Both the position numbers and the translations under genes were made by a program. This document shows positions 7,910-39,857 of a DNA stretch of 42,655 bases, one piece after another. The DNA lies in contig CAYGWV010000048.1 in assembly GCA_964353925.1 (NCBI GenBank), forward strand, positions 1 to 42,655, in the 5' to 3' direction. The notes below the pieces were generated by a model. It ran no database searches and was not told where the DNA came from. It was given only the letters and a program-made list of their open reading frames with translations. The first letter of the stretch is position 1, and each line of letters starts with the position of its first letter. Origin of the DNA: an uncultured Syntrophaceae bacterium (GTDB lineage Bacteria; Desulfobacterota; BSN033; UBA1163).

Positions 7910-8002
7910 GGAGAGATGCCCGAGAGGCCGAAGGGGCACGATTGGAAATCGTGTATTCCGCTAATAACGGGATCGAGGGTTCGAATCCCTCTCTCTCCGC
8001 CA
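7910..8002 (+). tRNA. tRNA-Ser (anticodon GGA), CCA encoded
   Basis: Acceptor ggagaga/tctctcc, anticodon arm cacga-ttGGAaa-tcgtg, long variable arm, T loop ttcgaat. Confidence 0.9.
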
Positions 8003-13457: not shown

Positions 13458-14386
13458 CTGAAAATTTAAATGTTTTCGCAGTTCGGACATTGACTCAAAA
13501 AGAATATTTTACACCCGGCCATCGGTCCTGCCAGGGATGCGCCGAGGCATTGGCAGTGAGATTGGTCGCCAAAGCGCTGGGGAGGAACGTGATCATTGCG
13601 AATGCAACAGGCTGTATGGAGATCGTTTCTTCTCCGTTGCCCTACACGGCTTGGAAGGTCCCTTGGATCCATGTGGCTTTTGAGAATACGGCGGCTGTTG
13701 CCTCTGGCATCGAATCTGCCTTAAAGGTGTTGATGAGAAAGGGGAGAATCCCCAACAAAAAGATTGTCACCCTTGCCATGGGCGGGGATGGGGGAACAGC
13801 AGACATCGGTTTCCAGGCACTCTCGGGTGCCCTGGAGCGGGGGCACAACTTTCTCTACGTTTGCACCGACAATGAGGCCTATATGAACACCGGTATCCAG
13901 CGGTCCTCCTCGACGCCTTTTGGCGCCTCCACGACCACCTCTCCCGTCGGGAAGATTCAAATGGGGCAGATCACATGGAAGAAAAATATGCCTGCCATTG
14001 TGGCGGCTCATAATATTCCTTATGTGGCCACCGCCTGCCCCAGTTATCCGATCGACTTGGTGCAGAAAGTGAAGAAGGCGGCTGATATAGAGGGTCCTGC
14101 CTATGTTCATATTCTTTCTGTTTGTCCCACCGGGTGGAGATCGGCACCGGAACTCTCGATCAAGCTGGGTCGGTTGGCCGTAGAGACAGGGGTTTTTCCT
14201 CTTTATGAGGTGGAGAGGGGGCAATATCGTCTGAATATCGATTTCCCGAAATTGAAGCCTATTAAGGAATATATCAAGCCTCAAGGAAGGTTCCGTCACC
14301 TCACGGATGGAATGATCGAGGAGATTGAAAAACGAGTTCACAAGGAATATGAGCAATTAAGAGCGAAGGCAGGAAGGGGAGCGTGA
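13454..14386 (+). CDS. porB: 2-oxoacid:ferredoxin oxidoreductase beta subunit (TPP-binding)
   Basis: GHRSCQGC cluster ligands and the TPP motif [10 protein letters not shown] ... [11 protein letters not shown]. Confidence 0.9.
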
Positions 14387-14387
14387 A

Positions 14388-14867
14388 ATGGAAGTTTCAA
14401 AAATTGACAGTATCATTCGACAAAACGGAGGCAAGGAATCCGCTATCCTATCCATCCTTCAAGACGTTCAGGCCAAGGAGAAATACCTCCCCAAAGAAGC
14501 CCTTGAATATATAGGGGAGAAACTCCACATCCCATTGAATAAGATCTATCGGATAGCCACATTTTACCGGGCTTTCAGTCTCTCGCCGCGAGGCAAGCAT
14601 GAGGTCTGTGTCTGTATGGGAACCGCTTGCCATGTCCGTGGGGCACAGCGAATCGTTGATCAAATCAAACTGGCATTGGACATCCGACCAGGAGAGACGA
14701 CAAAGGATAAAAATTTTACCCTGGAAACGGTCAACTGCCTGGGCGTCTGCGCAGCCGGACCGGTGGTTGCAATCGACGGCCAGTACTTTGGAAAGTTGAG
14801 TCCGGCCAAGGTCGATGGGACCTTAAAAAAGTTTCGCTCTGATAAGAAAAAAGGAGGGGACGAATGA
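14388..14867 (+). CDS. NuoE/HydC-like thioredoxin-fold [2Fe-2S] subunit
   Basis: CVCMGTACHVRG ... CLGVCAAGP. Starts 1 nt after the porB stop. Confidence 0.85.
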   Translation: MEVSKIDSIIRQNGGKESAILSILQDVQAKEKYLPKEALEYIGEKLHIPLNKIYRIATFYRAFSLSPRGKHEVCVCMGTACHVRGAQRIVDQIKLALDIRPGETTKDKNFTLETVNCLGVCAAGPVVAIDGQYFGKLSPAKVDGTLKKFRSDKKKGGDE

Positions 14868-20778: not shown

Positions 20779-20872
20779 TGGCGGAAGTGCATGGGAATCG
20801 AACCCACCACGGACATCTCTGCCCGTCACTGGATTTGAAGTCCAGGAGGCCCACCAGAACCTGTCCACTTCC
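20779..20872 (-). tRNA. selC: tRNA-Sec (anticodon UCA), CCA encoded
   Basis: Reverse complement: ggaagtggacaggttctggtgggcctcctggacTTCAAatccag ... ggttcgattcc ... cacttccgcca. It has an 8-bp acceptor stem, a long variable arm and the UCA anticodon. Confidence 0.9.
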
Positions 20873-21730: not shown

Positions 21731-22560
21731 TTAGACCACCCATGCGGAATATGGGGATGGTTGGAATAGGTTTCGCCTAAGAATGAGGTCTGGCAGCGAT
21801 AAAAGAAATAACCTTTTACGAATGCCGGACCTCAATTTTTGCCTGCAATCCTTATAATGATGTTTTTGATGACTGGAGAATAGGTGAGATTGATCCCGGT
21901 ATGGCCACCCAAGATGACATGGATCCCTTTGGACCCTCTGAGCCAACTCGATATCCTTCGCATAGCCCAGATGGCTCAGGAGAATGATCAAATCGGTTTT
22001 GGGCTTAAGTTCTCTGACCATGGCCTGTGCCGTTTCGAGGGGTGAACGAAAGTTCAATCCCTTTTTCCGAGGGTCAGAAGGACTTGTAAAGAAATCGGGT
22101 AAGAGAAGGCTAAACAGACCAACTCGAAGACCATTGATTTCCTTAATGAGAAAGGTTTGAAAAAGATTTTTGCCGGATGCCTCATCGAGAAGGTTGGAAC
22201 AGACGAATGGGAAGTTAGCCTTCCTCGAAATTTCCAATAGAAATTCCTTCCCTAAGGTTAAATCATCATCCCCAATTCCCATGGCATCGTAACCCATTAA
22301 ATTGAAGCTCTCGATGATGAGATGGGTCTTTCCGGCCATCGCTGTTAACTCGTTTTCTGGAATGGGATTAAGATATTTCTTAAAAAGGAGATCGCCCGCA
22401 TCTGAAACGAGTATTCCCTTTTCACTCTCCCGCAAATCCTTCCCCCACGCTCCTCTTCTGGCCAGACCACCAGCTCGATTCTTCTCCCCTATTGATACTA
22501 TTACTATAGAGAAGCGTGAGAGTCTTAGGCGGAATCTTATTCAGCGAATAGGCATAATGT
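21731..22560 (-). pseudogene. decayed paralogue of the metallophosphoesterase-like gene at 30198..31334
   Basis: By eye about 90% nucleotide identity to 30540-31260. It has a frameshift after AQRVQ, a frameshift at 22487-22490, and has lost the segment encoding IDPCPT-UGA. Confidence 0.8.
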
Positions 22561-25995: not shown

Positions 25996-27030
25996 TTATC
26001 CATGTTTGGCCTTTGACCGCAACCACCCCACCACTTCGTTCATATCTTCAGGGAGGGGGGAAACAAATTTCACCCTTTCTCCACTTTGAGGGTGAGTGAA
26101 TTCTAATCGTCGGGCGTGAAGGGCCTGGCGATTCAATCTCTTTACACACTCTTTCAAAATAGGGTCATGGATCGCCCCGGGTCTACCTTTTCTTCCGTAG
26201 AGAGGGTCTCCCAAAACGGGATGACCAATGGAGGAGAGGTGCACTCGGATCTGATGGGTTCGGCCGGTTTGAGGAAAGATCTCAAGGAGAGTGCAGCACT
26301 CAAATTCCTCCACTTTCTTCCAGCGAGTGACGGCCGCCCTTCCTTTTCTCGTCCGGGTAGACATCCGCTTTCTCTCACTTGGGTGTCTTCCGATGGCCGA
26401 ATCGATTAAGCCTTCGTCAGGGCCGAATCTTCCGTAGGCAATGGCTAAATAGACCTTTTCCACAGTCCGGTTTCCAAACTGTTTGGTCAAATGATGAAAA
26501 GCCTCATCCTCTTTAGCGACAACCATCACACCCGATGTGTCCTTATCCAATCGGTGCACAATCCCTGGCCTTAAGACACCATTAATGCCGGCGAGATCTT
26601 TGCAATGGTAAAGAAGGGCATTGACCAATGTGCCGGAGGGGTTTCCATAAGCAGGATGGACAACCATTCCGGGAGGCTTGTCAATGACGATGAGGAACGG
26701 GTCCTCATACAGGACGGTCAGGGGAAGGGGTTCTGGTTGGAGAGAAAACGATTCAGGTGGGGGGAGGCTTCCTGAAATCCTATCACCCGCTTTTAGATGT
26801 GCACTGGGTTTGGTCGGTTTTTGGTTTAAAAGGATATGATGTCTCTGGATCAAATTTTTTGCGTGAGAACGGGAGAGATTGAGGTCGGCTTCCGAGAGAA
26901 ATTGGTCGAGGCGCCTTCCGTGATCCTTTTCCATGACTTGAATGGAGAAAGATAAGTTCCCCTCCCCCTTCTTTAGCAAAGGGGGGGTGGGGGGATTTTG
27001 GAAGTTATTCTTTATGGAATCTTGTATCAT
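25996..27030 (-). CDS. rluD: 23S rRNA pseudouridine synthase, RluD family
   Basis: S4 domain, HRLDKDTSG catalytic motif. ATGA overlap with the selA stop. The alternative start ATG 26934 would exclude the repeat-encoded PPTPPLLKKGEG segment. Confidence 0.85.
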   Translation of the reverse strand: MIQDSIKNNFQNPPTPPLLKKGEGNLSFSIQVMEKDHGRRLDQFLSEADLNLSRSHAKNLIQRHHILLNQKPTKPSAHLKAGDRISGSLPPPESFSLQPEPLPLTVLYEDPFLIVIDKPPGMVVHPAYGNPSGTLVNALLYHCKDLAGINGVLRPGIVHRLDKDTSGVMVVAKEDEAFHHLTKQFGNRTVEKVYLAIAYGRFGPDEGLIDSAIGRHPSERKRMSTRTRKGRAAVTRWKKVEEFECCTLLEIFPQTGRTHQIRVHLSSIGHPVLGDPLYGRKGRPGAIHDPILKECVKRLNRQALHARRLEFTHPQSGERVKFVSPLPEDMNEVVGWLRSKAKHG

Positions 27031-28460
27031 TGCGGCTGGAGGTATTTCAATGCCTTCTCAATTCCGGCAGCCAAAAGAGGGATCTCTTCATCGAAGACGG
27101 TTCTCATATCCAGAATCAATTCCTCTTTGCTGATTCGAGAAATAACCGGGGGATCACTCTTCCGTAGATTTTCTTCGAGGCTGTTCACGGAAAAGTCGAG
27201 AGGTTTAATGGCAACGGCCATGGTTGGAAGTTCTTGAAGGGGAAGGGCTCCACCGCCCACTTGAGAGACATCTTCTTTCAAATAGAGCGTCATCTTTTCA
27301 TCCATCATCCCCGACAACCTTTTCAGCAACTGTTTCCCTCTCTTTTTTAGCCTCTTTGTATCCAAACTCAACATGCTAAGAGCGGGAATCTCCTCCATGG
27401 CTCTCTTCTCGTCGAGGTAGAGAAGCAGGGTTGATTCGAGAGCGGCCAGGGTGAGTTTGTCGATGCGGAGGGCCCGGGTCAAGGGATTGATTTTAAAGAG
27501 GTCCAGAATTTTTTTCTTGCCCAGGATGATTCCCCCCTGTGGGCCTCCGAGGAGCTTATCCCCGCTAATGGTGACCGCATCCACACCGGTTTTGATCGTC
27601 TCTTGAACAGTAGGTTCTTTTTCTAATCCATATTGGGAGAGGTCCACGAGACAGCCGCTTCCTAAATCATCCACGATAGGAATCTGATGTTCCCTCCCGA
27701 GTTGCACCAGATCTTGGAGAGAGACTTCGGAGGTGAACCCCATCACTCTAAAATTACTAGTGTGGACTTTCAAGAGCAGAGCCGTGTGAGGGCCAAGGGC
27801 CTTCTGGTAATCGTCGAAGTGAGTACGATTGGTCGTCCCGACCTCCCTGAGCAAAGCCCCGCTTCGTTTCATGACATCGGGGATTCGAAAAGCCCCCCCG
27901 ATTTCGACCAGTTCTCCTCTCGAAACGATCACCTCCTTGCCCTCTGCAAGGGTATTCAAGGCAAGTAAGACAGCCGCGGCATTATTGTTCACCACCAGGG
28001 CTGATTCTGCTCCTGACAGACGGCACAGAATCTCTTCCACATGGGTATAACGGTCTCCGCGTTCACCCCGATCCAGGTCATATTCTAAATTGGAATAGGT
28101 TTTGGAGACCTCCATCAGATGTTTAATCGCAGAAGGGTGAAGTGGAGCTCTTCCTAGATTGGTGTGGATAACCACACCGGTCGCATTAATCACTCTGCGG
28201 AGATGGGGCTGAATCTGGAGATCGATCTCTTTCTGGAAAAGAGGGCAGAGGTTTTCGAAAGAGAAAAAGGCCTCTCCCAGTTGAGAGAGGTCTTGTTTGC
28301 GGAGGATTTCATCGCGCAGTCGTCCCAATCCCTTTCGGATGGCTTCGACCACGACATTGCGGGGATGGACCTTTAAGAGGTCAACGATCTCTGGCCTTGA
28401 GAGGATATCATCGACGCTTGGAATCTTACGGAGCACCTGTTGACGAAGGGATGGAGACAT
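27027..28460 (-). CDS. selA: L-seryl-tRNA(Sec) selenium transferase
   Basis: 477 aa with PLP-lysine motif ISGDKLLGGPQGG. GAGGAGG RBS 6 nt before ATG 28460. Confidence 0.9.
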   Translation of the reverse strand: MSPSLRQQVLRKIPSVDDILSRPEIVDLLKVHPRNVVVEAIRKGLGRLRDEILRKQDLSQLGEAFFSFENLCPLFQKEIDLQIQPHLRRVINATGVVIHTNLGRAPLHPSAIKHLMEVSKTYSNLEYDLDRGERGDRYTHVEEILCRLSGAESALVVNNNAAAVLLALNTLAEGKEVIVSRGELVEIGGAFRIPDVMKRSGALLREVGTTNRTHFDDYQKALGPHTALLLKVHTSNFRVMGFTSEVSLQDLVQLGREHQIPIVDDLGSGCLVDLSQYGLEKEPTVQETIKTGVDAVTISGDKLLGGPQGGIILGKKKILDLFKINPLTRALRIDKLTLAALESTLLLYLDEKRAMEEIPALSMLSLDTKRLKKRGKQLLKRLSGMMDEKMTLYLKEDVSQVGGGALPLQELPTMAVAIKPLDFSVNSLEENLRKSDPPVISRISKEELILDMRTVFDEEIPLLAAGIEKALKYLQPQ

Positions 28461-30198
28461 TGGGTTTCCTCCTCATCAGGAGTGTTTTAAAGATCTTAAT
28501 GAAGTTCATTCGAATGAATCGGGTGGGCCACTCCAGTTCTTTTTTCTCACAGATGGTGGACATGCTATAGCGGCGGAGGGAGTGACGTCCGCTTGAAATG
28601 GACTGCAAGATAATCTCTCTCTCTCTGGCATCTGGAAGAGCCATGATCCGGTCGATCTCCTTCATCATCCGGACGGACCCCTCAAGCCGACCCTCGACCG
28701 ATTCTGCGGTCTTCGGGTCGATTAGCCCGAATTGGGCCTTCAGCCGGTTGAGTCTTTTCCCGGCTTCGTAGGTGCTGTAAACGATCTCATCCCGATTCAT
28801 CCATTCCGTTTCATAGTTGAGGATATATTTCCAGCTGGGAGACAATGAGGCCTGACGGTGTTCTTCCACGGTTCGATAAAGCAGACGGTATCCATATTTT
28901 TCTGGCGCTTCAAAGACAGTACTTCCGGGATCCAAGAAGGGGGCCAGGGGAGAGATGAAGGGATAGAGTTTGTTGTAAGAGCGAAATCGTTCTAATAGGG
29001 AATGACAATAATCGACCGTTTCCAGAACGGATGGAAAGGTTTGTTTTGGAAGGCCGGTCATGAAGAACAGATCAATCCGCTTCGAGCCAAGATCGACAGC
29101 ATCCCCGATCATCCTTTCCAGCGATTCGTTGTTGTAAGGTCTTCCGAAAGCCCTCCGGACCTCCTCATCGTGAGACTCAGGAGAGATTTCGATATTGAAG
29201 TTGAGAATGGACTCAGCAATCCTTTTCAGTTGAGCCCTCGTGGGAGGAACAAAAAATTCAAAAGCGATATGGTTGCTGATCGGCCTGCTCTTCATCTCCT
29301 GAAGAAAAGTGGAACTATATTCTTCTCCGGGTTGAAAGATATCGCCGATGATCATCACCGGAGCATGAAGGTGATCCGAGACATTGAAGATATCTTGTGC
29401 CAGTAACTTGGGGTTGCGATAGGCGGGTTTCCTGCGGTTGGCCATCGTTCGAAAGGTCTGCGCCGAGCCTCCGCAAGTTCTGCAAGAGTAGGTGCATCCC
29501 CGGCAGGTGAAGACGGCTGTCACGGGATAGGTGTACCAATCCACAAAAGGCTGGTACCCTGTGGGATCAAGATACCTCACCACCTTCTTCATGATGTGAC
29601 TGTAATCGATCGTCATCTCGTCAAGGTTCTCTGGTACATGGGTGAGGGGATTGACCTGAATTCGGTTTTTTTCATCCCGGTAGGTGAGGTTAGGAATACT
29701 TTTGAACTCTCCGCCTTTTTTGATGGTTTGAAGGAGTTGGACCAACGGTTTCTCTGTGGAATCTCCTCTCATCACAAAATCAATAAATGGATATTGACGG
29801 AGTATCTCTTCATGATAATACGTGGCAGAGAGCCCACCTAAGATGACAGGGATGTTGGGATGAAACCGTTTAATGATCTCTGCGAGGGCCAATGCTCCCT
29901 GGACATGGGCCATCCAATGGAGATCGATCCCGAAGGCCAGAGGCTTATTTTTCTGGATGAGCCGCTCCACATCGAATTTCTCATCCTTCAGCATCTTCAT
30001 GGCCACATTGATGATCCTGACCTTAAGACCATGGCGTTCCAAATATTCTGAGAGGCTGGCAAACCCAATGGGATACATTTCAAAGATGGGGGTGGAGGGA
30101 ACGACATCGCTGATCGGACCATGGATCCCGGGCCGCTTTCTAAAGTCGTAAAGGGTAGGGGGATGCAAAAGGATGAGATCAATACTTGCCATCTTCAT
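28426..30198 (-). CDS. B12-binding-domain radical SAM protein (class B), subfamily unassigned
   Basis: N-terminal Rossmann-like B12-type domain (LILLHPP ... VILGGLSATY) and cluster motif CRGCTYSCRTC (CxxxCxxC). Its start overlaps the upstream gene's stop (TGATG), and its 3' end overlaps selA by 35 nt. Confidence 0.8.
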   Translation of the reverse strand: MKMASIDLILLHPPTLYDFRKRPGIHGPISDVVPSTPIFEMYPIGFASLSEYLERHGLKVRIINVAMKMLKDEKFDVERLIQKNKPLAFGIDLHWMAHVQGALALAEIIKRFHPNIPVILGGLSATYYHEEILRQYPFIDFVMRGDSTEKPLVQLLQTIKKGGEFKSIPNLTYRDEKNRIQVNPLTHVPENLDEMTIDYSHIMKKVVRYLDPTGYQPFVDWYTYPVTAVFTCRGCTYSCRTCGGSAQTFRTMANRRKPAYRNPKLLAQDIFNVSDHLHAPVMIIGDIFQPGEEYSSTFLQEMKSRPISNHIAFEFFVPPTRAQLKRIAESILNFNIEISPESHDEEVRRAFGRPYNNESLERMIGDAVDLGSKRIDLFFMTGLPKQTFPSVLETVDYCHSLLERFRSYNKLYPFISPLAPFLDPGSTVFEAPEKYGYRLLYRTVEEHRQASLSPSWKYILNYETEWMNRDEIVYSTYEAGKRLNRLKAQFGLIDPKTAESVEGRLEGSVRMMKEIDRIMALPDAREREIILQSISSGRHSLRRYSMSTICEKKELEWPTRFIRMNFIKIFKTLLMRRKPNVSIPSSTGAP

Positions 30199-31334
30199 CA
30201 CTTCGGAGGCACAGGGTTCTCTGTGGTTTGGGTTTTTGCCTTATAGGCTTCGACCGACCTTTTAATCTCGGGATCGTCCTTCATCTGTTCATGTAGTGAA
30301 ATGACGCGATTCATAAATTGGTTTTTACCCCGGAGCTGGCTCAGGGTTCGTTCAGCCTCTTCCTTGGCCTTTCGCAATTGTGTTCTTTCAGCCTCTGGCA
30401 TTGCCTTAGAACTTAATCGTTCGTTGTAACTCTTGAGGTTGTTCTCCAAAGATAGTCTTGTTGCCGAATTGTAAAAGACCGGCTCACTGTTATAAAAGAG
30501 GAGGTCAAGTCTTCCTCCAATCATTCCTCGAGAAGCGGTCTGCAGAATAATGATGTTTTTGATGACGGGGGGATAGGGGAGATTGATCCCGGTATGGCCC
30601 CCCGAGATGACATTGATTCCTTGGACCCTCTGAGCGAATTCGATATCCTTCGCATAGCCCAGATGGCTCAGGAGAATGATCAAATCGGTTTTTGGCTTAA
30701 GTTCTCTGACCATCGCCTCTGCTGTTTCGATGGGTGAACGAAAATTCAATCCCTTCTTTCGAGGATCAGAAGGACTTGCAAAGAAATCGGGTGAGAGAAG
30801 GCTGAACAGACCAATTCGAAGACCATTCATTTCTTTAATGAGAGAGGTTTGAAAAAGATTTTTGCCGGATGCCTCGTCGAGAAGGTTGGAACATAGGAAT
30901 GGAAAGTTAGCCTTCTTCGAAATTTCCAATAGAAATTCCTTCCCGAAGGTTAAATCATCATCCCCAATTCCCATGGCATCGTAACCCATTAAATTGAAGC
31001 TCTCGATGATGAGATGGGCCTTTCCGGCCATTGCTGTTAACTCGTTTTCCGGAATGGGATTAACATATTTCTTAAAAAGGAGATCGCCCGCATCTAAAAC
31101 GAGTATTCCCTTTTCACTCTCCCGTAAATCCTTCACCCACGCTCCTCTTCTGGCCAGACCGCCAGCTCGATTCTTTTCCCCTCAGGTCGGGCAGGGGTCA
31201 ATCTCCCCATTGATATTATTGCTATAGACGAGGGTAAGAGTCTTAGGTGATTTTTGGGCATGGGATGGAGATGCATTGAAGAGCAAGAAAAATCCCAGAA
31301 CCAAACCGCCGGTCACAAACCATTTTCCATTCAT
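30198..31334 (-). CDS. secreted metallophosphoesterase / 5'-nucleotidase-N-terminal-like protein with in-frame UGA (candidate selenocysteine, motif C-P-T-U)
   Basis: ORFs 31182..31370 and 30198..31136 are in the same frame, separated only by TGA 31182-31184. Together they reconstitute one phosphoesterase-fold domain (motif I region upstream of the UGA, LDAGD downstream). Signal peptide MNGKWFVTGGLVLGFFLLFNASPSHA. Confidence 0.6.
31150..31165 (-). promoter_or_regulatory. candidate minimal SECIS hairpin
   Basis: CUGGC-GGUCUG-GCCAG begins 16 nt after the UGA, with GGU in the apical loop. It is only 5 bp, so the evidence is weak by itself. Confidence 0.3.
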
Positions 31335-31549: not shown

Positions 31550-32401
31550 CTATGTAATCCAGGGATTGGGGACTGGTCTCTTATAGCCTTTTTGGGAGGC
31601 CAGAATATCGAGATGGAGGGTGGCCAGGTCCTCTAAAACCGGATCTGACTCCTGCAGGTTTCTGTAATCGATGGTTTTAATATATTGACGACATTTGTCA
31701 CAAAGATCAATGCGATGGGTTTCCTCTCCCTCTCCATAAAAATAATGAAGAGATTGCTGATCTTTGTTTTTGCAGAAAGGGCAGAATATTCGATCCATTC
31801 TCCACTGATAGCCACAGAAGGAACAGAGGAGATACCGCTTTCCCACCTCTTCTTTCAATAGACTTAACGAGGGGAGAGAGCCACACAGAGGACAATAGCC
31901 TTTCAGCCAGGTTTCAGGATCGAGTTCGCTGCGAAGCCGTTCCACTCCGGCTTCAATCGAAGGCCTGATGCTGCTGCGAAATAAAAATAAAAAAACATTT
32001 TTGTCCAGTCCAAGTTCTTCGACAATCTCCTCCCTCCGTTGCTCCTTTAATCCGCCCCCCAGTAATTTCTTCAAGTCTATTCTTTTGTCGTCGATAGCTT
32101 CTTTGATCTTTTTCAGCTGCTCAGCCATATGCGGGTTTGCATTTTTCCCGACCTGACAAAGTGTTTCGAAGAGCTTAACGGATGATTCAATATCCAATGG
32201 GAAATCTTCTTTCTGAATCAATGAGAAGCCTTCTTTGGAGAGGAGTTTCTTCCATTCCTTCCCGAGTTGTGCGGAATCAATCTCTAAAGGGGCTTTTACT
32301 TTTTCTTGCGCTTCTTTGACGCTTTGATAGAAATCAAGGATCTTTCCATAGCCAGGTCTTTTCTTTTTAATCTGTTGAATTCTTTCTTTTAACCTATCCA
32401 A
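31550..32401 (-). CDS. fdhE: formate dehydrogenase accessory protein FdhE
   Basis: Four CxxC pairs (CPLCGS, CSFCGY, CPFCKN, CDKCRQY) in a 283-aa protein next to fdhAB. Confidence 0.85.
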   Translation of the reverse strand: MDRLKERIQQIKKKRPGYGKILDFYQSVKEAQEKVKAPLEIDSAQLGKEWKKLLSKEGFSLIQKEDFPLDIESSVKLFETLCQVGKNANPHMAEQLKKIKEAIDDKRIDLKKLLGGGLKEQRREEIVEELGLDKNVFLFLFRSSIRPSIEAGVERLRSELDPETWLKGYCPLCGSLPSLSLLKEEVGKRYLLCSFCGYQWRMDRIFCPFCKNKDQQSLHYFYGEGEETHRIDLCDKCRQYIKTIDYRNLQESDPVLEDLATLHLDILASQKGYKRPVPNPWIT

Positions 32402-32730: not shown

Positions 32731-33465
32731 CTATCCGATCATGTGTCGAAGGTCGCTCAAAGGTTGAAAGAGACGTCTGAGCGCCATCTTCCTTGTAATG
32801 CCAATGGCGTTCTCCGCCACAGCGAATTTGTGATACTTTTTGGGATCATCCGCTAGGAGATAGATTATCCGAACATCATCGGGATTGCCAAGCATGGCAT
32901 CTTTATAAACTTTTTTCACCTCTTCCAACCTCTTGTTAGCTTTGTCGATGATGTCTTTTCTATCTCCAAAGTTCATTGCTCCAGTCGGGCACGTCTTGAC
33001 ACAAGCCGGCAGCATCCCTTCTTTGACTCGGTCAATACACATTGTGCATTTGGCCATTACCCCCATTCTCTCATCCCATCGAGGAATATCATAGGGACAA
33101 GATTCTCGGATGGCTTTAAGATCGGCTGGCTTCACTTTTATCTTTGGATTGAAAACCACTGCGCCTGTGGCCTCATCCTTGGGAATGGCCTTGGATCCCA
33201 AGGATTCGGCCGTAGCCTTGCAGGGTGGTTCCATACAGTGTCTGCACTGATCAGGGAAGAAATACCACTTCGGATTCCCATTCTCTTCGAACTCGCTGAA
33301 CCTCACCAATTTGTAGGTGAAGAAGTTGAGATCCTGAGGATTTTGGTGACTTCCACGCTGGATGGTCTTTGTTCCTGGATTTCTATTCCACTGCTTGCAG
33401 GCAATCTGACATCCCCTGCAGGCTGTGCATTTGGTCGTATCTATGAAAAAGGATTTGTCTGCCAT
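32731..33465 (-). CDS. fdhB: formate dehydrogenase iron-sulfur (beta) subunit
   Basis: Multiple 4Fe-4S motifs (CTACRGCQIACK, CRHCMEPPC, CTMCIDR ... PACVKTCP). I see no C-terminal membrane anchor. Confidence 0.85.
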   Translation of the reverse strand: MADKSFFIDTTKCTACRGCQIACKQWNRNPGTKTIQRGSHQNPQDLNFFTYKLVRFSEFEENGNPKWYFFPDQCRHCMEPPCKATAESLGSKAIPKDEATGAVVFNPKIKVKPADLKAIRESCPYDIPRWDERMGVMAKCTMCIDRVKEGMLPACVKTCPTGAMNFGDRKDIIDKANKRLEEVKKVYKDAMLGNPDDVRIIYLLADDPKKYHKFAVAENAIGITRKMALRRLFQPLSDLRHMIG

Positions 33466-33479: not shown

Positions 33480-36400
33480 TTAACTTTTTACCGGCTTCTT
33501 CGCCGGTTGTTTGGCCAATTTTCTTACATTGACCATGAATGCCTTCGATTCAGGGATCATCGTATTGGGATCCCCGATCGTTGGGGTGAGCAGATTGGCA
33601 CTCTCCCCACCATCCTTCGGATGGAGCCAGCCGAAATGCCAGGGAATTCCTACTTGGTGAACGGTCTGGCCAGCAATGTTGAACGGTTTTAAGCGAAATG
33701 TCACGATGGCCACAGCTTCCACTTTGCCTCGGGCCGTTTCCACAATCACCCTGTCACCGTTCTTGATCTCTCTGAGCTTGGCCAGCTCCAGACTCATCTC
33801 GCAAAACATTTGAGGTTCAGCCTCGATGAGCCAGGGAAGCCAGCGGGTGAGAACTCCGGTCTGCCAGTGTTCAGTTACACGATAGGTTGAGCAAACAAAA
33901 GGATATTTGGGATCGCAAGTAAGGAACGTATCCAGGCCCCCTTCAAAGATTTTGATGACCGGATTGATCCTCTGGTTGGACATCAAGTTCTTTTCAATGG
34001 GACACTCCAGGGGTTCATAATGTTCGGGGAAGGGCCCATCTTTTAGTCCAGGTCCGAAAATCGAGGCTACGCCATCCGGTTTCATGATGAACGGATAGAC
34101 TCCGGTGGTTCCCATCGGAGGTACGGCATTGTCGGGAACATCCCCTATCCATCGTTTATTGTCTGCGTCCCATTTGAGCAAAGGCCGTTTTGGATCCCTT
34201 GGATTTCCATCCAGATCTACAGAAGCTCGGTTGTAAATGATTCTTCTGTTGAGTGGCCAACACCATGACCACTCCGGATAGAGGCCCAATCCAGTCGGAT
34301 CAGTCTTCTTTCTTCGGGCGGCCATATTTCCAGCCTCGGTATAACTGGCAGAATAGAGCCAGTCCCCGCAGGAGGTCCGGCCATCATCGAGAAGGTAAAC
34401 AAAGTTCGGGACAAGCGTTCCTTTTTTATAAGCCTTCTTGTCAACGGGATGTTCCGGGATATCTTCCATAAAGTAGCCGTTAATTTCTTTGGCTATCTTA
34501 TGGACATCCAAATGGCCATTGGTCTCATAGTCCCATTTCAAATTCAATATGGGTTCAGGGAAAGCCCCTTTCTCTTTTTCATAGAGAGCTTTCAGTTTCT
34601 TAAATAACTCAAACATGATATCTGCATCGGGTTTGGCCACTCCCGGGGGATTGCATGCCTTATTACGCCACTGCATCCAACGGCCGCTGTTGCTGATGCT
34701 TCCTTCCTTTTCCAAAAAGGCTGCGCAAGGTAGCTGAAAGACCTCGGTTTTGATCTTGTTTGGATCCATCCCTGGGCCTTTCCAGAAGGACCCAGTCTCA
34801 TTATCGAAGACATTCACATTGACCATCCAGTCAAGCTTGGTGAATGCCTGACGGACCTTCCCCGCGTTGGCGCTTGAACAGGCTGGGTTCATACCCCACG
34901 CAAAGAAACCTGTGAAAGATCCTTTATACATTTCGTCAAAGAGATTCAACCAGGAAGCGTCTTGACCCGTATCGAGTTTCGGCATCCATGCATAACCAAA
35001 TTCATTCTCTTTTGTGGCTTTATCCCCAAACGTCGATTTCAAAAGACTGGCCACATATTTAGGTCGATTCTTCCACCAGTTGACACTTCGGGGATCCTTT
35101 GAGGCTGGCGTGGTTTTATTGTAATCGGCCAAGGTTGCTAAATGAGCTTGGGGATTAGGTAAGTATCCTGGCCAGATATGAAAGAGGAGCCCTGCATCGG
35201 TCGAGCCCTGAACATTCGATTCGCCTCGAAGGGCATTTACGCCTCCGCCTGCAATGCCCATATTTCCAAGAAGTGATTGGATGATGGACATGGCCCGGAT
35301 ATTCTGAACGCCCACGGTATGCTGCGTCCACCCCATGGCGTATAACACGGTCCCGCTTTTATCCGGAGCGCCGGTAGCCCCATACGCCCTATAAACTTTT
35401 TCCAAATCTGCCACTGGAGTTCCTGTGATTTCCGAAACCTTCTGGAGCGTATAGCGGGAATAATGTTTCTTGAGAAGTTGCAAGGCACAACGGGGATCCT
35501 GCAGGCTCATATCCCTCTGGGGAATCCCCTGCTCGTCCTTTTCTAATGCCCAGGTGGATGCATCATAAGCCCTTTTCGATGGATCATAGCCCGAGAAAAG
35601 CCCGTCATCGAATCCGTACTTGGGATTCGCGATGGAAGAGGCATTGGTGTAGTTCTTGACGTAGAACTCATCATAGAGATTATTGTCCAGAATGTACTTG
35701 ATCATCCCGCCAAGAAAAGCGATATCGGTTCCTGAACGAAGTCTGGCAAAGATATCAGCTTTGGTGGATGTTCGAGTGAATCTTGGGTCCACATGGATAA
35801 AGATAGTGCCCTTATCCTTGGCCGCTTGGATCCATTTAAATGAAACGGGGTGGTTTTCGGCAACATTGCTACCCATATTCAAAATCACATCGGCATTACG
35901 AAAATCGATGTAATGATTGGTCATTGCACCGCGTCCGAACGACTCTCCCAGAGCCGCTACAGTTGCGCTGTGTCAGATACGAGCCTGGTGCTCAATATAA
36001 ACGAGGCCCAGGGACCTAAGAAACTTTTGGTAGAGCCAGCATTCCTCATTGTCCATGGCTGCGCTTCCCACAGAGGCGATGCCATTGGTCCGGTTCACAA
36101 CCTGGCCTTTTGCATTTTTCTCCATGAAGCTCTTGTCGCGGCTCTTCTTGATGTTCGCTGCAATCTTGTTCAGAGCCCATTCCCAACTGACTTCTTTCCA
36201 TGCAGCGCTGGAGGGCGCGCGGTAAAGGACTTTCTGTAAACGATTGGGATTGACCGCGATTTGATAGCTTGAGCCCCCTTTTGGGCACAGGGCGCCTTCG
36301 TTGATGGGATGGTCGGGATCCCCCTCGGCATTGATCACCTTCCCTTTGGCATCGGTATGGACGATAATACCGCAGCCGACCGAGCAGTAGCAGCAGACCG

Positions 36401-36542
36401 TGGTGGTTGGCTTGGCCCCTTTAATTCGTAATTCCTGGGCATAGACCTCGGCTGGAGAGAGGTCGAATCCTAGGCCACCCATCACCGTCCCGGAGGCTGT
36501 TGCCCCAGAAATCTTCAAAAATGTTCTTCTGGTAATTTTCAT
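33480..36542 (-). CDS. fdhA: periplasmic formate dehydrogenase catalytic (alpha) subunit, selenocysteine-containing
   Basis: Tat signal MKITRRTFLK. ORFs 35973..36542 and 33480..35924 join in frame through TGA 35973-35975, giving HQARI-U-HSATVAALGESFG, the canonical Sec position of FdnG-type enzymes. Confidence 0.9.
35938..35958 (-). promoter_or_regulatory. candidate SECIS hairpin of fdhA
   Basis: AGCGGCUCU-GGG-AGAGUCGUU (9 bp including G-U pairs) starts 14 nt after the UGA. Hand-folded only. Confidence 0.4.
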
Positions 36543-37153: not shown

Positions 37154-37645
37154 TTACTCATTTAAATTGAGGTTATTAATAATAGCGCTGACGACGAATT
37201 TGGGAGCTGCGGAGATGTCCACGGTTAAACCGTCCGTCGGTTCTTCGAGAGTATCTAACTGGCTTCTTAACAGATTCTTATCCATATAAAGATGTTGACG
37301 CTCTTCAATCCGTTTGCGCAGCAATTCATATGAGCCTTTTAGATAGACCGTCCTCACGGTGTTCTGGTCCACGCCCAAGATATCCCGGTAAGCCTGTTTC
37401 AGGGCTGAACAAGCCAGTATCGTGTTCTCTTTATCTTTCAACCAGCGTTGTATGTTCACATGCAAATTTTCCAACCAGAGTTTGCGGTCTTCATCGGTTA
37501 AGGCAATTCCAGCCCGCATCTTTTCAACATTTTTTTCCGGGTGAAAGTCATCCCCATCATAAAAAGACCCGCCGAGCTTCTCAGCGAGTATTTTCCCGAT
37601 GGTTGTCTTGCCACAACCCATCGGCCCCATCAGTATGATTACCAT
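37154..37645 (-). CDS. gntK: gluconokinase (GntK-type P-loop kinase)
   Basis: MGPMGCGKTTIG and DGDDFHP motifs in 163 aa. Confidence 0.8.
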   Translation of the reverse strand: MVIILMGPMGCGKTTIGKILAEKLGGSFYDGDDFHPEKNVEKMRAGIALTDEDRKLWLENLHVNIQRWLKDKENTILACSALKQAYRDILGVDQNTVRTVYLKGSYELLRKRIEERQHLYMDKNLLRSQLDTLEEPTDGLTVDISAAPKFVVSAIINNLNLNE

Positions 37646-37779: not shown

Positions 37780-39024
37780 TTATTCCAGGCGGTAAAGAAT
37801 CTCACCAGCGTGGTCCACATAGAGGATGCCCTCATCCTCCTTCCCCATGTAATCAGCAATCTTGATCTCAGCCGGATCCATATAGCCCAAGTTGATCTGC
37901 TCGCATTTCTCTCTAGGAATTGAAGTAGCCAGTACAACTTGAATGCGGGGTTTTTCAATGCCGTTTTGGTAGATGCCGGTCCCGCACACATGGGTGGAAT
38001 GGGCGAGAACGCCTCTCGGAACATCTTTGAAACTCTCCATCTGAAACAAGAAGTAGTCCCGCACGTGGTATCCTATTTTTTCAATATAATCTCCCCAGGT
38101 ACTGGAAATCCTGTCAATATGCGGAGCATAGATGATGAGTTTACCATTGTCGGCAACCACCTGTTCCAGTTTGTACATCACTTTTCCGCCTGTCCAGATC
38201 TCGTCATACATTTCGGGCGCCCGGCCCAATACGGTCCGATAGGGTTTCTCTTTGACCACAATGTGAACTTTCGAGGACAAATCCGCAGCCGCAGACCATG
38301 CTTCTTTTACGTCGCCGGCAAATAAACCGTACAGTCCGGCACCTGGCTTGACCACCATGGCCAAACAATGAACGGGTCGGTTGATTTTTTCCATGGCCTT
38401 ATTAATCACCTGCCGGACCGGAGTATCTTTCTTCCCGATGATCTCTCTGCAGGTCATCACAGCGGCCAGCCAGTGAAAAAAATGCAGTAACTCGCCGCCA
38501 GAAATGCCTGGGAACAAGTATTTCGCACCTCCGGAAAATCCAACGACTTCATGAGGGAAAACGGGACCCAGAATGAGGATCAGGTCATAGTCATATATCT
38601 TTCTGTTAATGTCGATCGATACCTTTTCTTTTAAAAGTCCACCGGAAATCCTTTCAACCTCTTCCTCGGACAGATGTCCAATTTGGAGAAAGGTTTCCGG
38701 CAAATCCCAGCGGTGGCAAAACAATTTGGATCGACCAAACTTCTCCTTCCGGGATGGATGGGTTATCCCATAAAGTTCTAGAATCTTTTCTTCAGACAAG
38801 GGGGGATGGGATCCTACGGCTACCATGAAATCCAATTTCGCAGCCCGTTCCCCAATCACCTCACGGACAGCACGAGCCATCATCGGCAGAGGGCAGGTCC
38901 TTGTCGCATCAGGGGTTAGGACCAGGACACGCTTTTTTTCATACAGGGTCGCGGGTGTTCCGGCTTCGATAATCTCTTTAGCCTTCTCTTCTGAAATGGA
39001 CACGGCGGAGCTTCCCTTTCTCAT
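37780..39024 (-). CDS. LarA-family nickel-pincer-dependent 2-hydroxyacid racemase/epimerase homologue
   Basis: ORF 37780..39141 trimmed to ATG 39024, 2 nt after the permease stop. LTPDATR, VGSHPP and HEVVGFSGGAKYLFPGI match the LarA catalytic His and cofactor-tethering Lys region. Confidence 0.8.
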   Translation of the reverse strand: MRKGSSAVSISEEKAKEIIEAGTPATLYEKKRVLVLTPDATRTCPLPMMARAVREVIGERAAKLDFMVAVGSHPPLSEEKILELYGITHPSRKEKFGRSKLFCHRWDLPETFLQIGHLSEEEVERISGGLLKEKVSIDINRKIYDYDLILILGPVFPHEVVGFSGGAKYLFPGISGGELLHFFHWLAAVMTCREIIGKKDTPVRQVINKAMEKINRPVHCLAMVVKPGAGLYGLFAGDVKEAWSAAADLSSKVHIVVKEKPYRTVLGRAPEMYDEIWTGGKVMYKLEQVVADNGKLIIYAPHIDRISSTWGDYIEKIGYHVRDYFLFQMESFKDVPRGVLAHSTHVCGTGIYQNGIEKPRIQVVLATSIPREKCEQINLGYMDPAEIKIADYMGKEDEGILYVDHAGEILYRLE

Positions 39025-39026
39025 GG

Positions 39027-39857
39027 TCAGTCTTTCAAAGCACCCATGGTCAGTCCCTGAACGATTGTTCTCCGCACGAAGAATGCAAACACGGAAACCG
39101 GCAGCACGATCAGGGTAGCCGCGGCGCCGATACCGGCCCAATCGATCTTTCCGTAGGAGATGAAGTTATATACTGCCACCGGCACGGTTTTAGTCCTCGG
39201 GCCGGAGAGGATCAGCGAGAAGAGAAACTGGTTCCATGAGAAGATGAAGGACAGTATCGCTGAAGTGGCGATGCCGTTTCGCACCAGGGGCAGCACGATC
39301 ATTAAAAAACTCTGCAGGCGGGAACACCCGTCGATCATGGCCGCGTCTTCGAGTTCCTCCGGCATCCCCTCGAAGAAGGAGATCATCAGCCAGATCACCA
39401 TGGGAAGGGTGATGATCAAGTGGGTGATGGTAAGTGCCGTGTAAGTGTCGATGAGCTTCAGGTGACGAAAGATGATGTACCAGGGCAGCAGGTAGCTCAC
39501 AAACGGCGTCATCCTGGCGACGAGGATAATGATTCCGATCTTTCCTTGCCGGTATTTGGCGATGGAATAAGCTGCCGGCAGCCCCAGTAGCAATGAAATA
39601 CCCGTGGCCAGGCCGGCGACGATGAGACTGTTCATCAGATATCTGAAGAAATTGTACTGTTGAAATACCGCCCTGAAGTTCTCTAGCGTGGGCCTAAAAA
39701 TGAACTCCGGGGGGTAGGAGATGTTTTGCACACCGGTCTTGAGCCCCGTCAGGATCATCCAGACGAATACGAACACCGGCGGTATACACAGGGCGATGGT
39801 CCCCGCATGAAAGAGGATCGATTTAAAGGTCTTCGTCATTCCAGTTCCAGTGATCAT
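39027..39857 (-). CDS. carbohydrate ABC transporter permease (MalG-like)
   Basis: Six hydrophobic segments and an EAA-type loop (EELEDAAMIDGCSRLQSFLMIVLP). Confidence 0.85.
   Translation of the reverse strand: MITGTGMTKTFKSILFHAGTIALCIPPVFVFVWMILTGLKTGVQNISYPPEFIFRPTLENFRAVFQQYNFFRYLMNSLIVAGLATGISLLLGLPAAYSIAKYRQGKIGIIILVARMTPFVSYLLPWYIIFRHLKLIDTYTALTITHLIITLPMVIWLMISFFEGMPEELEDAAMIDGCSRLQSFLMIVLPLVRNGIATSAILSFIFSWNQFLFSLILSGPRTKTVPVAVYNFISYGKIDWAGIGAAATLIVLPVSVFAFFVRRTIVQGLTMGALKD

What the first reader, a model, noticed from the sequence alone, without database searches (positions are those of the whole stretch)
30198..31334. In-frame UGA in a secreted metallophosphoesterase-like gene gives a C-P-T-U motif: candidate selenoprotein
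- Read on the minus strand, the sequence is ...aat ggg gag att gac ccc tgc ccg acc TGA ggg gaa aag aat cga gct ggc ggt ctg gcc aga aga..., which translates to NGEIDPCPT-U-GEKNRAGGLARRG.
- The 62-aa upstream ORF carries a signal peptide and the region matching phosphoesterase motif I.
- The 312-aa downstream ORF carries the rest of the same fold (LDAGD, LSHLGY, GGHTG). Neither piece makes sense as a separate protein.
- CxxU is the classic arrangement of redox selenoproteins.
- A short GC hairpin with GGU in its loop starts 16 nt after the UGA.
- selA lies two genes downstream in the same apparent operon, tRNA-Sec is 10 kb away, and a bona fide Sec formate dehydrogenase is 2 kb away.
- I cannot tell from memory whether this family is already in selenoprotein catalogues.
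Basis: partly seen in the sequence, partly recalled or inferred. Interest (0 to 1): 0.85.

Follow-up and report, generated by a model that had tools for sequence, protein, structure and literature searches.

The report
Exported UshA-like selenoprotein gene, uncurated clade
The in-frame UGA is almost certainly a real selenocysteine codon in an exported protein with a 5'-nucleotidase-like fold, but UshA-like selenoproteins are already catalogued, so this is a new, uncurated branch of a known kind.

Summary
On the minus strand, one reading frame runs from ATG 31334 to TGA 30198 and is interrupted only by TGA 31184-31182, which gives C48-P-T-U51.

Evidence that the UGA encodes selenocysteine (Sec):
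- 84 of 86 homologous loci (roughly 48-95% identity) carry TGA at this column.
- Both flanks evolve as protein-coding sequence in the same frame.
- A sister clade has Cys at this column (EPCP[SG]C).
- A hairpin, CUGGC[GGUCUG]GCCAG at 31165-31150, meets all four criteria of the published bacterial SECIS (selenocysteine insertion sequence) model.
- The hairpin is frozen at synonymous sites in all 76 distinct Sec-form genes, while five Cys-form genes vary at those sites.
- tRNA-Sec, selA and a Sec-type FdhA lie in the window.

The protein has the 5'-nucleotidase N-terminal fold (pLDDT 92.5; Foldseek E 7e-24). It lacks the DxH and GNHE metal and catalytic motifs and the nucleotide-binding domain. 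It is therefore probably not a phosphoesterase.

UshA-like selenoproteins have been listed since 2008 and have two NCBIfam models, NF041198 (CxU) and NF049981 (CxxU). This protein scores below both cut-offs (241.7 against 275; 73.2 against 140). It also lacks the cytochrome domain found in NF041198 members.

The gene sits in an invariant unit: UshA-like, then a B12-radical-SAM gene, then selA.

Verdict: a genuine selenoprotein and a new variant of a known kind. Biochemical function is unknown. Interest is moderate to low.

The parts
30198..31334 (-). Complete coding sequence of the UshA-like selenoprotein: 378 residues including Sec51, ending at stop TGA 30200-30198
   Evidence: Homologues share this start and stop. 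NCBIfam NF041198 scores 241.7 bits.
31257..31334 (-). Predicted Sec-type signal peptide, MNGKWFVTGGLVLGFFLLFNASPSHA, with likely cleavage after SHA
   Evidence: Read from the sequence: a basic n-region, a hydrophobic core and an A-x-A-like c-region. Homologues conserve this. No signal-peptide predictor was run. The region has low pLDDT and little structure in the model.
31209..31220 (-). Degenerate phosphoesterase motif I: N39-N40-I41-N42 in place of D-x-H
   Evidence: Alignment to the 2z1a 5'-nucleotidase pairs HTNDTHAH with YSNNINGE. N39 and N40 are invariant and N42 is present in 74 of 76 homologues.
31191..31193 (-). Cys48 codon (TGC), partner of Sec in C-P-T-U
   Evidence: Cys is invariant in 76 of 76 homologues, with free TGC/TGT use (53 and 23).
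31182..31184 (-). UGA codon for selenocysteine 51
   Evidence: TGA in 84 of 86 loci. Cys at this column in the sister clade.
31150..31165 (-). Bacterial SECIS apical hairpin: 5-bp stem CUGGC/GCCAG with the loop GGUCUG at 31160-31155. There are 21 nt between the UGA and the loop
   Evidence: This is the RNAalifold consensus structure. Pair counts: UG 45, CG 13, UA 8, with none unpaired at the variable pair. Hairpin free energy is -9.2 kcal/mol. Third-base entropy is zero at the codons GGC, GGT and GCC in 76 of 76 sequences.
31083..31097 (-). Retained motif II (LDAGD)
   Evidence: Invariant in alignment A3.
30954..30965 (-). Altered motif III: G-D-D-D in place of G-N-H-E
   Evidence: Invariant. 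GNH[ED] occurs only in relatives that also have DxH.
30660..30668 (-). Retained motif IV histidine (S-H-L)
30588..30602 (-). Motif V, GGHTG: the first His is kept and the second His or Gln is replaced by Gly
28426..30201 (-). Downstream B12-binding radical SAM gene (TIGR04190 family). Its start overlaps the selenoprotein stop
   Evidence: NCBIfam 668 bits against a cut-off of 500. It is adjacent in all 27 loci that extend past the gene.
27027..28460 (-). selA (selenocysteine synthase), which overlaps the radical SAM gene by 35 nt
   Evidence: TIGR00474 at 629 bits. Synteny.
20779..20872 (-). tRNA-Sec (anticodon UCA)
   Evidence: ARAGORN. Rfam RF01852 at 81.4 bits.

Best explanation
The locus 31334-30198 (minus strand) is one gene. 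It encodes an exported, 378-residue selenoprotein with the N-terminal fold of UshA/5'-nucleotidase.

How the UGA is read:
- During translation, UGA 31184-31182 is read as selenocysteine (Sec).
- A small mRNA hairpin lies inside the coding sequence at 31165-31150, with stem CUGGC/GCCAG and loop GGUCUG, 21 nt after the UGA.
- The hairpin acts as the bacterial SECIS. It would recruit SelB carrying Sec-tRNA(Sec).
- The tRNA is made from the tRNA-Sec gene at 20779-20872 and charged through SelA, which is encoded two genes downstream.

What the protein is:
- The product carries a C48-P-T-U51 pair on the loop that follows strand beta-1. In true phosphoesterases this is the place where the D-x-H metal ligands sit.
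- Those ligands, and the Asn-His of motif III, are replaced (N-x-N and D-D-D). The nucleotide-binding C-terminal domain is replaced by a helical tail.
- The protein is therefore most likely not a nucleotidase. I infer a periplasmic enzyme whose Cys/Sec pair is the reactive centre, acting as a redox-active selenenylsulfide or as a metal or chalcogen ligand next to the retained Asp/His ligands.

What is shown and what is inferred:
- Shown: a single gene, a conserved UGA, Cys in relatives, a constrained SECIS-type hairpin, the fold, the remodelled motifs and the conserved operon.
- Inferred: actual Sec insertion, export, and the chemistry of the site.
For: - TGA occupies the column in 84 of 86 loci from genomes and metagenomes. 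These include 13 species-level MAGs of Thermodesulfobacteriota, Syntrophaceae and Syntrophorhabdus, down to 48% identity.
- Entropies upstream of the UGA (0.32/0.14/1.12 by codon position) are typical of coding sequence.
- The sister clade has Cys at this column.
- The RNAalifold consensus is the 5-bp hairpin. The one variable pair is always a standard pair (UG 45, CG 13, UA 8). Two further pairs covary (CG 29 and UA 9; UA 25 and GC 5) in the roughly half of the sequences that have them.
- Of 30 conserved four-fold-degenerate codons, only the three inside the hairpin never vary at the third base (76 of 76). All others have entropy between 0.66 and 1.98.
- Five Cys-form genes encode the same GGLARRG peptide with varying codons.
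- The hairpin meets the published bacterial SECIS model: a loop of 3-9 nt, a stem of at least 4 bp, G in the first two loop positions, a spacing of 16-37 nt, and free energy of -7.5 kcal/mol or lower (PMC13188914 section 5; values).
- tRNA-Sec, selA and a Sec-type FdhA are in the window.
- TGA is an ordinary stop in 6 of 24 genes in the window.
- Fold: the AF2 model has pLDDT 92.5 and pTM 0.90. The top Foldseek hits are 5'-nucleotidases (E 7e-24, TMq 0.67).
- Motif changes are shown. Across representatives, 53 lack DxH and have a Cys pair, 34 have DxH and no Cys pair, and 6 are mixed.
- Family link: NF041198 'UshA-like (seleno)protein' is the best NCBIfam hit.
Against: - There is no experimental evidence for selenium incorporation.
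- selB and selD are not in the window.
- The window's own hairpin has only 5 base pairs. The unconstrained minimum-free-energy fold of the 60 nt after the UGA is a different structure, with a z-score of only -2.0.
- One sample (L001 and L002) has TTA (Leu) at this column.
- No model coordinates were available, so whether Sec51 sits next to the retained Asp/His ligands was not measured.
- The Cys-form control for codon freedom has only five sequences.
- The protein scores below the curated cut-offs of both UshA-like selenoprotein models.
Confidence: 0.88

Rival explanations
1. The gene is a pseudogene or a split gene. The UGA is a disabling nonsense mutation and the two ORFs are remnants.
For: - Gene callers annotate only the 312-aa piece, and NCBI names it 'hypothetical protein'.
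- A truly decayed second copy exists in the same window.
Against: - The same TGA is kept in 84 of 86 loci across roughly 48-95% identity.
- Both flanks are under purifying selection in one frame.
- The real pseudogene copy looks different. It has a 26-nt deletion, a frameshift and a truncation.
Confidence: 0.02
2. There are two separate products. Translation stops at the UGA, releasing a 50-residue peptide, and restarts at GTG 31136, which lies behind an AGGAG. This would give a cytoplasmic 312-aa protein.
For: - GTG 31136 has an AGGAG a few nucleotides upstream.
- Most database entries are 312-313 aa.
Against: - The codon at that position is ATG, GTG or TTG in only 40 of 76 homologues. It is GTA, GTC, ATA, ATC, ATT or GGG in the rest.
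- The 312-aa product would lack strand beta-1 of the fold, the signal peptide and helix alpha-1, which the model places as integral parts.
- The AGGAG falls within the R-G-A codons of the conserved GGLARRGAW peptide.
Confidence: 0.03
3. The UGA is read through, but not as selenocysteine. Examples are near-cognate Trp, Cys or Gly insertion, or a lineage-specific recoding. The conserved hairpin would then be a read-through stimulator or another regulatory element.
For: - Sec insertion itself is not demonstrated.
- One gene caller translated the codon as Trp under code 4.
Against: - TGA is a normal stop in 6 of 24 genes in the window.
- The genome encodes tRNA-Sec and SelA.
- The nearest relatives have Cys at this column, which is the standard Sec/Cys exchange.
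- The hairpin matches the SECIS model in spacing and in its GG loop start.
- The gene sits in the selA operon.
Confidence: 0.05

Closest known systems
UshA-like (seleno)protein, NCBIfam NF041198 (UshA_like_PCGU); listed as 'COG0737 UshA-like, CxU' in PMC2398784 (2008) and in PMC9312934 and PMC13188914
   Same: - It is the best NCBIfam hit (241.7 bits over profile positions 6-382).
- Both have an exported UshA-fold N-terminal domain with a degenerate motif I.
- Both carry a Cys plus Sec/Cys pair on the loop after strand beta-1.
   Different: - The score is below the cut-off of 275.
- The motif is C-x-x-U (CPTU), not C-x-U (PCGU).
- Members that pass the cut-off (P0134, P0165, P0171, P0209; about 520-542 aa) are about 140-165 residues longer at the C-terminus, and three of the four also match a cytochrome c-554/CycA model there.
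- The window protein has 378 residues, no CxxCH and a helical tail.
UshA-like (seleno)protein family 2, NCBIfam NF049981 (CxxU; PMC13188914 table, annotated in GenBank)
   Same: - Both have the CxxU spacing.
- Both have the UshA-like N-terminal domain without a cytochrome domain (the profile is 262 positions long).
   Different: - The score is 73.2 bits against a cut-off of 140, in two stretches.
- None of the ten CxxC, CxxU or CxC relatives tested reaches that cut-off either.
- The window protein has an extra helical region of about 90 residues.
Cys-form sister clade (P0123, P0272-P0311; about 333 aa; EPCP[SG]C)
   Same: - Identity is 42-48%.
- The N-terminal architecture and the GGLARRG, LDxGD, GIGDDD and LSHLGY motifs are the same.
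- Cys sits exactly at the Sec column.
   Different: - It uses TGC, not TGA.
- It has no frozen hairpin codons.
- Its C-terminus is shorter.
- It is a stand-alone gene in a different neighbourhood, with no radical SAM gene or selA nearby.
5'-nucleotidase / UshA / CD73 (calcineurin-like metallophosphoesterases; PDB 3ivd, 2z1a, 1ush, 4h1s)
   Same: - Both have the N-terminal domain fold and the long linker helix (Foldseek E 7e-24, TMq 0.67).
- Motifs II (GD), IV (His) and the first His of motif V are kept.
   Different: - Motif I D-x-H is replaced by N-x-N.
- Motif III G-N-H-E is replaced by G-D-D-D.
- The second ligand of motif V is replaced by Gly.
- There is no C-terminal nucleotide-binding domain.
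- A Cys/Sec pair has been gained.
Escherichia coli fdhF-type bacterial SECIS
   Same: - Both are hairpins inside the coding sequence immediately after the UGA.
- Both have an apical loop that starts GGUC. The fdhF loop sequence is from my own knowledge. The general model is from PMC13188914.
   Different: - The stem is shorter: 5 bp in the window and up to 7 bp in relatives.
- No bulged U was identified.
- SelB binding was not tested.

Membership tests
Bacterial selenoprotein gene (general definition) | In-frame UGA conserved in orthologues, with coding conservation on both sides | tested here: met
   TGA in 84 of 86 loci. Entropies by codon position are 0.32/0.14/1.12 upstream and 0.58/0.44/1.20 downstream.
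Bacterial selenoprotein gene (general definition) | Homologues with Cys at the aligned column | tested here: met
   The sister clade has EPCPSC or EPCPGC with TGC.
Bacterial selenoprotein gene (general definition) | A bacterial SECIS hairpin after the UGA: loop of 3-9 nt, stem of at least 4 bp, G in loop positions 1-2, spacing of 16-37 nt, free energy of -7.5 kcal/mol or lower (PMC13188914) | tested here: met
   The loop is GGUCUG (6 nt), the stem is 5 bp, the spacing is 21 nt and the free energy is -9.2 kcal/mol. An RNA-level constraint is shown by the frozen synonymous sites.
Bacterial selenoprotein gene (general definition) | Sec machinery in the genome (tRNA-Sec, SelA, SelB, SelD) | tested here: inconclusive
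   tRNA-Sec and SelA are in the window. No selB or selD was seen among the ORFs scanned. A Sec-type FdhA implies that the organism has them.
Bacterial selenoprotein gene (general definition) | Demonstrated selenium incorporation | not testable with these tools
   This needs 75Se labelling or mass spectrometry.
NF041198 UshA-like (seleno)protein (PCGU) | HMM score at or above the curated cut-off of 275 bits | tested here: not met
   241.7 bits.
NF041198 UshA-like (seleno)protein (PCGU) | C-x-U/C motif (P-C-G-U) | tested here: not met
   The window has P-C-P-T-U, which is C-x-x-U.
NF041198 UshA-like (seleno)protein (PCGU) | Full-length match, including the C-terminal part of the profile (positions beyond about 382), which matches a cytochrome c-554/CycA model in three of the four tested members that pass the cut-off | tested here: not met
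   Only profile positions 6-382 of 519 are matched. There is no CxxCH. The members P0134, P0171 and P0209 hit Cyt554.
NF049981 UshA-like (seleno)protein family 2 | HMM score at or above the curated cut-off of 140 bits | tested here: not met
   73.2 bits.
NF049981 UshA-like (seleno)protein family 2 | C-x-x-U motif | tested here: met
   C48-P-T-U51. The motif is listed as CxxU in PMC13188914.
Calcineurin-like metallophosphoesterase / 5'-nucleotidase | N-terminal domain fold | tested here: met
   The AF2 model has pLDDT 92.5. Foldseek gives E 7e-24 to 3ivd, 2z1a, 1ush and CD73.
Calcineurin-like metallophosphoesterase / 5'-nucleotidase | Metal and catalytic motifs I (D-x-H) and III (G-N-H-E/D) | tested here: not met
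   These are N-I-N and G-D-D-D, and they are invariant in the clade.
Calcineurin-like metallophosphoesterase / 5'-nucleotidase | C-terminal nucleotide-binding domain (5_nucleotid_C) | tested here: not met
   There is no Pfam hit other than a coiled-coil-type match. The model shows helices and one strand after residue 283.
SoxB thiosulfohydrolase (TIGR04486) | HMM score at or above 550 bits | tested here: not met
   96.1 bits.

The most novel reading that the evidence does not exclude
The Cys48/Sec51 pair, together with the retained Asp/His ligands (D84, D125-127, H224, H247), may form a previously undescribed metal-chalcogen or selenenylsulfide active site built on a phosphoesterase scaffold.

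The invariant, translationally coupled unit of UshA-like(Sec), B12-radical-SAM (TIGR04190) and SelA may reflect a functional link. Two possibilities are periplasmic handling of selenium or sulfur compounds that feeds Sec synthesis, and maturation of the exported protein by the radical SAM enzyme. On this reading the arrangement would not be mere lineage-specific gene order.
Probability: 0.12. Interest if true: 0.7.

Novelty: new variant of a known kind. Interest (0 to 1): 0.35.

Why it matters
- **Annotation.** More than a thousand database entries for this clade appear to be N-terminally truncated fragments of about 312 aa (most of the 120 listed hits are). They are labelled 5'-nucleotidase, cyclic-nucleotide phosphodiesterase or 'hypothetical protein'. 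They should be full-length exported selenoproteins. Neither NCBIfam selenoprotein model captures them.
- **Active site.** The result gives a clean natural example of a phosphoesterase fold whose metal site was rebuilt around a Cys/Sec pair. Among representatives, 53 have the Cys pair without DxH and 34 have DxH without the Cys pair.
- **SECIS.** The codon-level constraint is unusually clear and has a built-in Cys-form control.
- **Function.** The function of all UshA-like selenoproteins is still unknown. The fixed linkage to a B12-radical-SAM gene and selA offers a testable lead, but nothing here overturns current understanding.

Tried and rejected
- **Unconstrained folding.** Folding the 60 nt after the UGA gave a different structure with a z-score of only -2.0. 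It is not supported by the alignment, and the conserved element is the short hairpin.
- **Representative search with an edited sequence.** I used P0054 instead.
- **N-terminal-only homologue search.** A 102-aa query returned only 4 fragments and no Cys forms. The Cys forms came from the representative search and from a search seeded with P0123.
- **First structure prediction.** It used a shallow alignment and was unusable at the N-terminus (pLDDT 62, and below 50 for residues 1-56). A deeper, more diverse alignment gave pLDDT 92.5.
- **Model coordinates.** These are not exposed, so I could not measure the distance from Sec51 to the retained ligands.
- **The 267-aa relatives of P0123.** I suspected these were Sec forms. 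The one checked (L166) has TGC and a truncated gene call.
- **Literature.** A search for TIGR04190 and Ta0216 found nothing, and NF041198 and NF049981 appear only in the 2026 review.
- **Pfam PEP-utilisers_N hit.** I treat this hit (26 bits, residues 305-363) as a coiled-coil artefact, because the model shows plain helices there.
- **Rfam.** It reports no SECIS-type match in the window at gathering thresholds.
Full report
**1. Observation**

- One frame is open from ATG 31334 to the stop TGA 30200-30198. It is interrupted only by TGA 31184-31182.
- The product would be 378 residues, with Cys48 and residue 51 at the UGA (C-P-T-U).
- The mechanical ORF list splits this into a 62-aa ORF (from ATG 31370) and a 312-aa ORF (from GTG 31136). 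Homologues begin at the equivalent of ATG 31334.
- The surroundings are as described:
  - tRNA-Sec lies at 20779-20872 (ARAGORN; Rfam RF01852 at 81.4 bits).
  - selA lies at 27027-28460 (629 bits).
  - A B12-binding radical SAM gene of family TIGR04190 lies at 28426-30201.
  - FdhE, FdhB and a UGA-split FdhA lie upstream. The FdhA carries the classical HQARI-U-HSATV site.

**2. Is the UGA a conserved, coding position?**

- I fetched related DNA from one genome per species and from metagenomes.
- All 13 genome loci that cover the N-terminus carry an in-frame TGA at the same column. They come from Thermodesulfobacteriota, Syntrophaceae and Syntrophorhabdus MAGs at 48-94% identity.
- Over all 86 loci with the motif, the count is TGA 84 and TTA 2. 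The two TTA loci are two assemblies that appear to come from one sample.
- The peptide on both sides is almost invariant: L-T-L-x-Y-S-N-N-I-N-G-E-x-[DE]-P-C-P-T-U-[GDN]-x-x-x-[RK]-x-G-G-L-A-R-R-G-x-W.
- The 20 codons before the UGA have mean entropies of 0.32, 0.14 and 1.12 at codon positions 1, 2 and 3. The rest of the gene shows the same pattern (0.60, 0.41, 1.22). The upstream part therefore evolves as protein in the same frame.
- The alternative start at GTG 31136 is a valid start codon in only 40 of 76 distinct homologues.
- TGA is an ordinary stop in 6 of 24 annotated genes in the window, including this one. A genome-wide reassignment is therefore excluded.

**3. Cys in relatives**

- I ran a search of 1.84 billion representative proteins with a full-length homologue as the query.
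- Aligning the hits to the query shows that the nearest full-length relative outside the clade, P0123 (48% identity), reads EPCPSCDGG, with Cys at the Sec column.
- A search seeded with P0123 found about 40 clusters of full-length proteins of about 333 aa. The seven inspected all carry EPCP[SG]C.
- More distant relatives carry CPTC, CPSC, CETC or, most often, PCGC.

**4. SECIS**

- The 50 nt from the UGA onwards were aligned for 66 distinct sequences.
- The block UGGCGGUCU-N-GCCA is invariant.
- RNAalifold returns a 5-bp stem (columns 20-24 with 31-35) and a six-base loop, GGUCUN, as the consensus.
- In window coordinates this is CUGGC[GGUCUG]GCCAG at 31165-31150.
- The only variable pair of the stem is UG in 45 sequences, CG in 13 and UA in 8. 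It is never a mismatch.
- Two further pairs extend the stem in about half of the sequences and covary (CG 29 and UA 9; UA 25 and GC 5). All 500 column shuffles fall below the observed covariation score, and all slid registers score lower.
- Because the element lies inside a conserved peptide, I tested for a constraint at the RNA level. Of 30 conserved four-fold-degenerate codons in the gene, only the three inside the hairpin have zero third-base variation in 76 of 76 sequences. These are Gly GGC, Gly GGT and Ala GCC. All the others have entropies of 0.66-1.98.
- The Leu codon in the loop varies freely at its third base.
- As a control, five distinct Cys-form genes encode the same GGLARRG peptide with GGA or GGG, then GGC, GGG or GGT, then CTG or TTG.
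- The hairpin satisfies all four constraints of the published bacterial SECIS model (loop size, stem length, G at loop positions 1-2, spacing of 16-37 nt, free energy of -7.5 kcal/mol or lower; PMC13188914). Here the spacing is 21 nt and the free energy is -9.2 kcal/mol.
- An unconstrained fold of 60 nt gives another structure with weak support (z-score -2.0). The alignment does not support that structure.

**5. What the protein is**

- *Sequence.* Searches place it with 5'-nucleotidases (PDB 2z1a, E 7e-21).
- *Structure.* A first model was poor. A second, built on a deeper alignment, is confident (pLDDT 92.5, pTM 0.90). Its best structural matches are 5'-nucleotidases, namely 3ivd, 2z1a, UshA and CD73 (E 7e-24, TMq 0.67).
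- *Layout.* The model has strand beta-1 at residues 25-32, a loop that holds the Cys/Sec pair, then helix alpha-1. After the catalytic-type domain come two long helices, a strand and a helix. The nucleotide-binding C-terminal domain of real 5'-nucleotidases is missing.
- *Motifs.* The alignment to 2z1a shows the following changes. All of them are invariant or nearly invariant within the clade.

| Motif | Canonical | This protein |
|---|---|---|
| I | D-x-H | N-I-N |
| II | G-D | kept |
| III | G-N-H-E | G-D-D-D |
| IV | His | kept |
| V | G-G-H-S-H | G-G-H-T-G |

- *Wider pattern.* Among 93 representative relatives that cover motif I, 53 lack D-x-H and have a Cys pair on the following loop. 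Another 34 have D-x-H and no Cys pair, and 6 are mixed. G-N-H-[ED] is found only in the D-x-H group. Gain of the Cys(/Sec) pair goes with loss of the canonical metal and catalytic residues.
- *Inference.* The pair is the reactive centre of a remodelled site, and the protein is not a phosphoesterase. This is an inference. I could not measure distances because model coordinates are not exposed.
- *Export.* The N-terminus looks like a Sec-type signal peptide when read by eye. No predictor was run.

**6. Gene neighbourhood**

- All 27 loci that extend beyond the gene's 3' end have the order UshA-like, TIGR04190 radical SAM, SelA. This is usually followed by RluD and PgeF. FdhA, FdhB and FdhE (or at least FdhE) lie upstream in about half of the loci.
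- In the window, the stop of the selenoprotein gene overlaps the radical SAM start, and the radical SAM gene overlaps selA by 35 nt. This fits a single transcription unit.
- The Cys-form sister clade is a stand-alone gene in a different neighbourhood.
- All Sec-form loci belong to one lineage. The linkage could therefore be inherited gene order rather than a functional coupling.

**7. Comparison with what is known**

- UshA-like selenoproteins are already catalogued:
  - 'COG0737, UshA-like, CxU', with 76 sequences in the Global Ocean Sampling data (PMC2398784).
  - The 2022 and 2026 reviews (PMC9312934; PMC13188914).
- The window protein's best NCBIfam hits are these two models, but both scores are below the curated cut-offs: 241.7 against 275, and 73.2 against 140.
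- Relatives that pass NF041198 are about 520-542 aa and match the full-length profile. Three of the four also match a cytochrome c-554 model in their C-terminal part. The window protein has no CxxCH and matches only profile positions 6-382.
- None of the ten relatives tested reaches the NF049981 cut-off, and the six with CxxC or CxxU spacing are also below the NF041198 cut-off.
- In public databases the members of this clade appear as fragments of about 312 aa. They are named 5'-nucleotidase, cyclic-nucleotide phosphodiesterase or 'hypothetical protein'.

**8. Verdict**

This is a genuine selenoprotein gene with a well-defined SECIS.
- It is not a new kind of selenoprotein. It is an uncurated clade of the known UshA-like group, and it is distinct in three ways:
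  - C-x-x-U spacing combined with a helical tail and no cytochrome domain;
  - scores below both family thresholds;
  - a fixed position in a radical-SAM/selA operon.
- The biochemical function of the whole group remains unknown.
- I rate the interest as moderate to low (0.35).
- The most novel reading still open is a new Cys/Sec-based active site that is functionally tied to the radical SAM enzyme and to selenium metabolism. I give that a probability of about 0.12.

Noticed in passing
window 21854-22529 (minus strand): A second, decayed partial copy of the same gene lies about 1 kb from tRNA-Sec. It is about 94% identical over roughly 675 nt, from the codons for P-K-T-L to ...N-I-I-I. A 26-nt deletion removes GEIDPCPT plus the TG of the TGA. 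There is also a 1-nt insertion, and the copy is truncated at its 3' end. It still scores 133 bits to NF041198, and it keeps the hairpin with one C-to-T change.
   Followed up: partly
L001 8132-8134 and L002 723-725: One metagenomic sample has TTA (Leu) in place of TGA in an otherwise intact gene. The SECIS hairpin is unchanged, and the same contig has a UGA-split FdhA and selA. Contig coverage is about 4x. This could be a sequencing error or a real Sec-to-Leu variant.
   Followed up: partly
L003 438-1577: A public gene call translated the TGA as Trp, so it was presumably called under a code-4 model. It gives a 'full-length' protein, P0054, with W at the Sec column. P0175 (DPCPTW) may be a similar case in another clade.
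   Followed up: partly
window 33480-36542 (minus strand), UGA at 35975-35973: The alpha subunit of a periplasmic (Tat-signal) formate dehydrogenase is split by a Sec UGA (HQARI-U-HSATV). The predicted hairpin after it has a GGG loop. FdhB (32731-33465) and an FdhE-like gene (31550-32401) follow.
   Followed up: partly
window 28426-30201 (minus strand): A B12-binding radical SAM protein of family TIGR04190 (668 bits) has no known function. It is more conserved than the selenoprotein (75-98% against 46-95% identity) and is always wedged between the selenoprotein gene and selA. No literature was found.
   Followed up: partly
P0152 residues 322-415 (representative relative, not in the window): A 780-aa relative with CPTC spacing also matches the 'OS_HP2 family (seleno)protein' domain model (NF041425), at 47.8 bits against a cut-off of 100. 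This hints that Cys-pair UshA-like domains are fused to other modules related to selenoproteins.
   Followed up: no
window 8149-8247 (+), 7326-7415 (+), 7910-8002 (+): These are a small bacterial SRP RNA (80.7 bits) and two tRNA-Ser genes (anticodons CGA and GGA).
   Followed up: no
window 37780-39141 (minus strand): A LarA-like nickel-pincer-cofactor enzyme homologue lies here. Its best hit is 'putative hexonate epimerase' at 186 bits, below the cut-off of 500. It sits next to a gluconokinase (37154-37645) and sugar-type ABC transporter genes.
   Followed up: no
window 37-3535 (+) and 12285-16735 (+): These regions hold ETF beta and alpha plus an ETF-quinone oxidoreductase-like flavoprotein. 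They also hold 2-oxoacid:ferredoxin oxidoreductase subunits and a NuoF-like protein. This fits a syntrophic or anaerobic Thermodesulfobacteriota genome.
   Followed up: no
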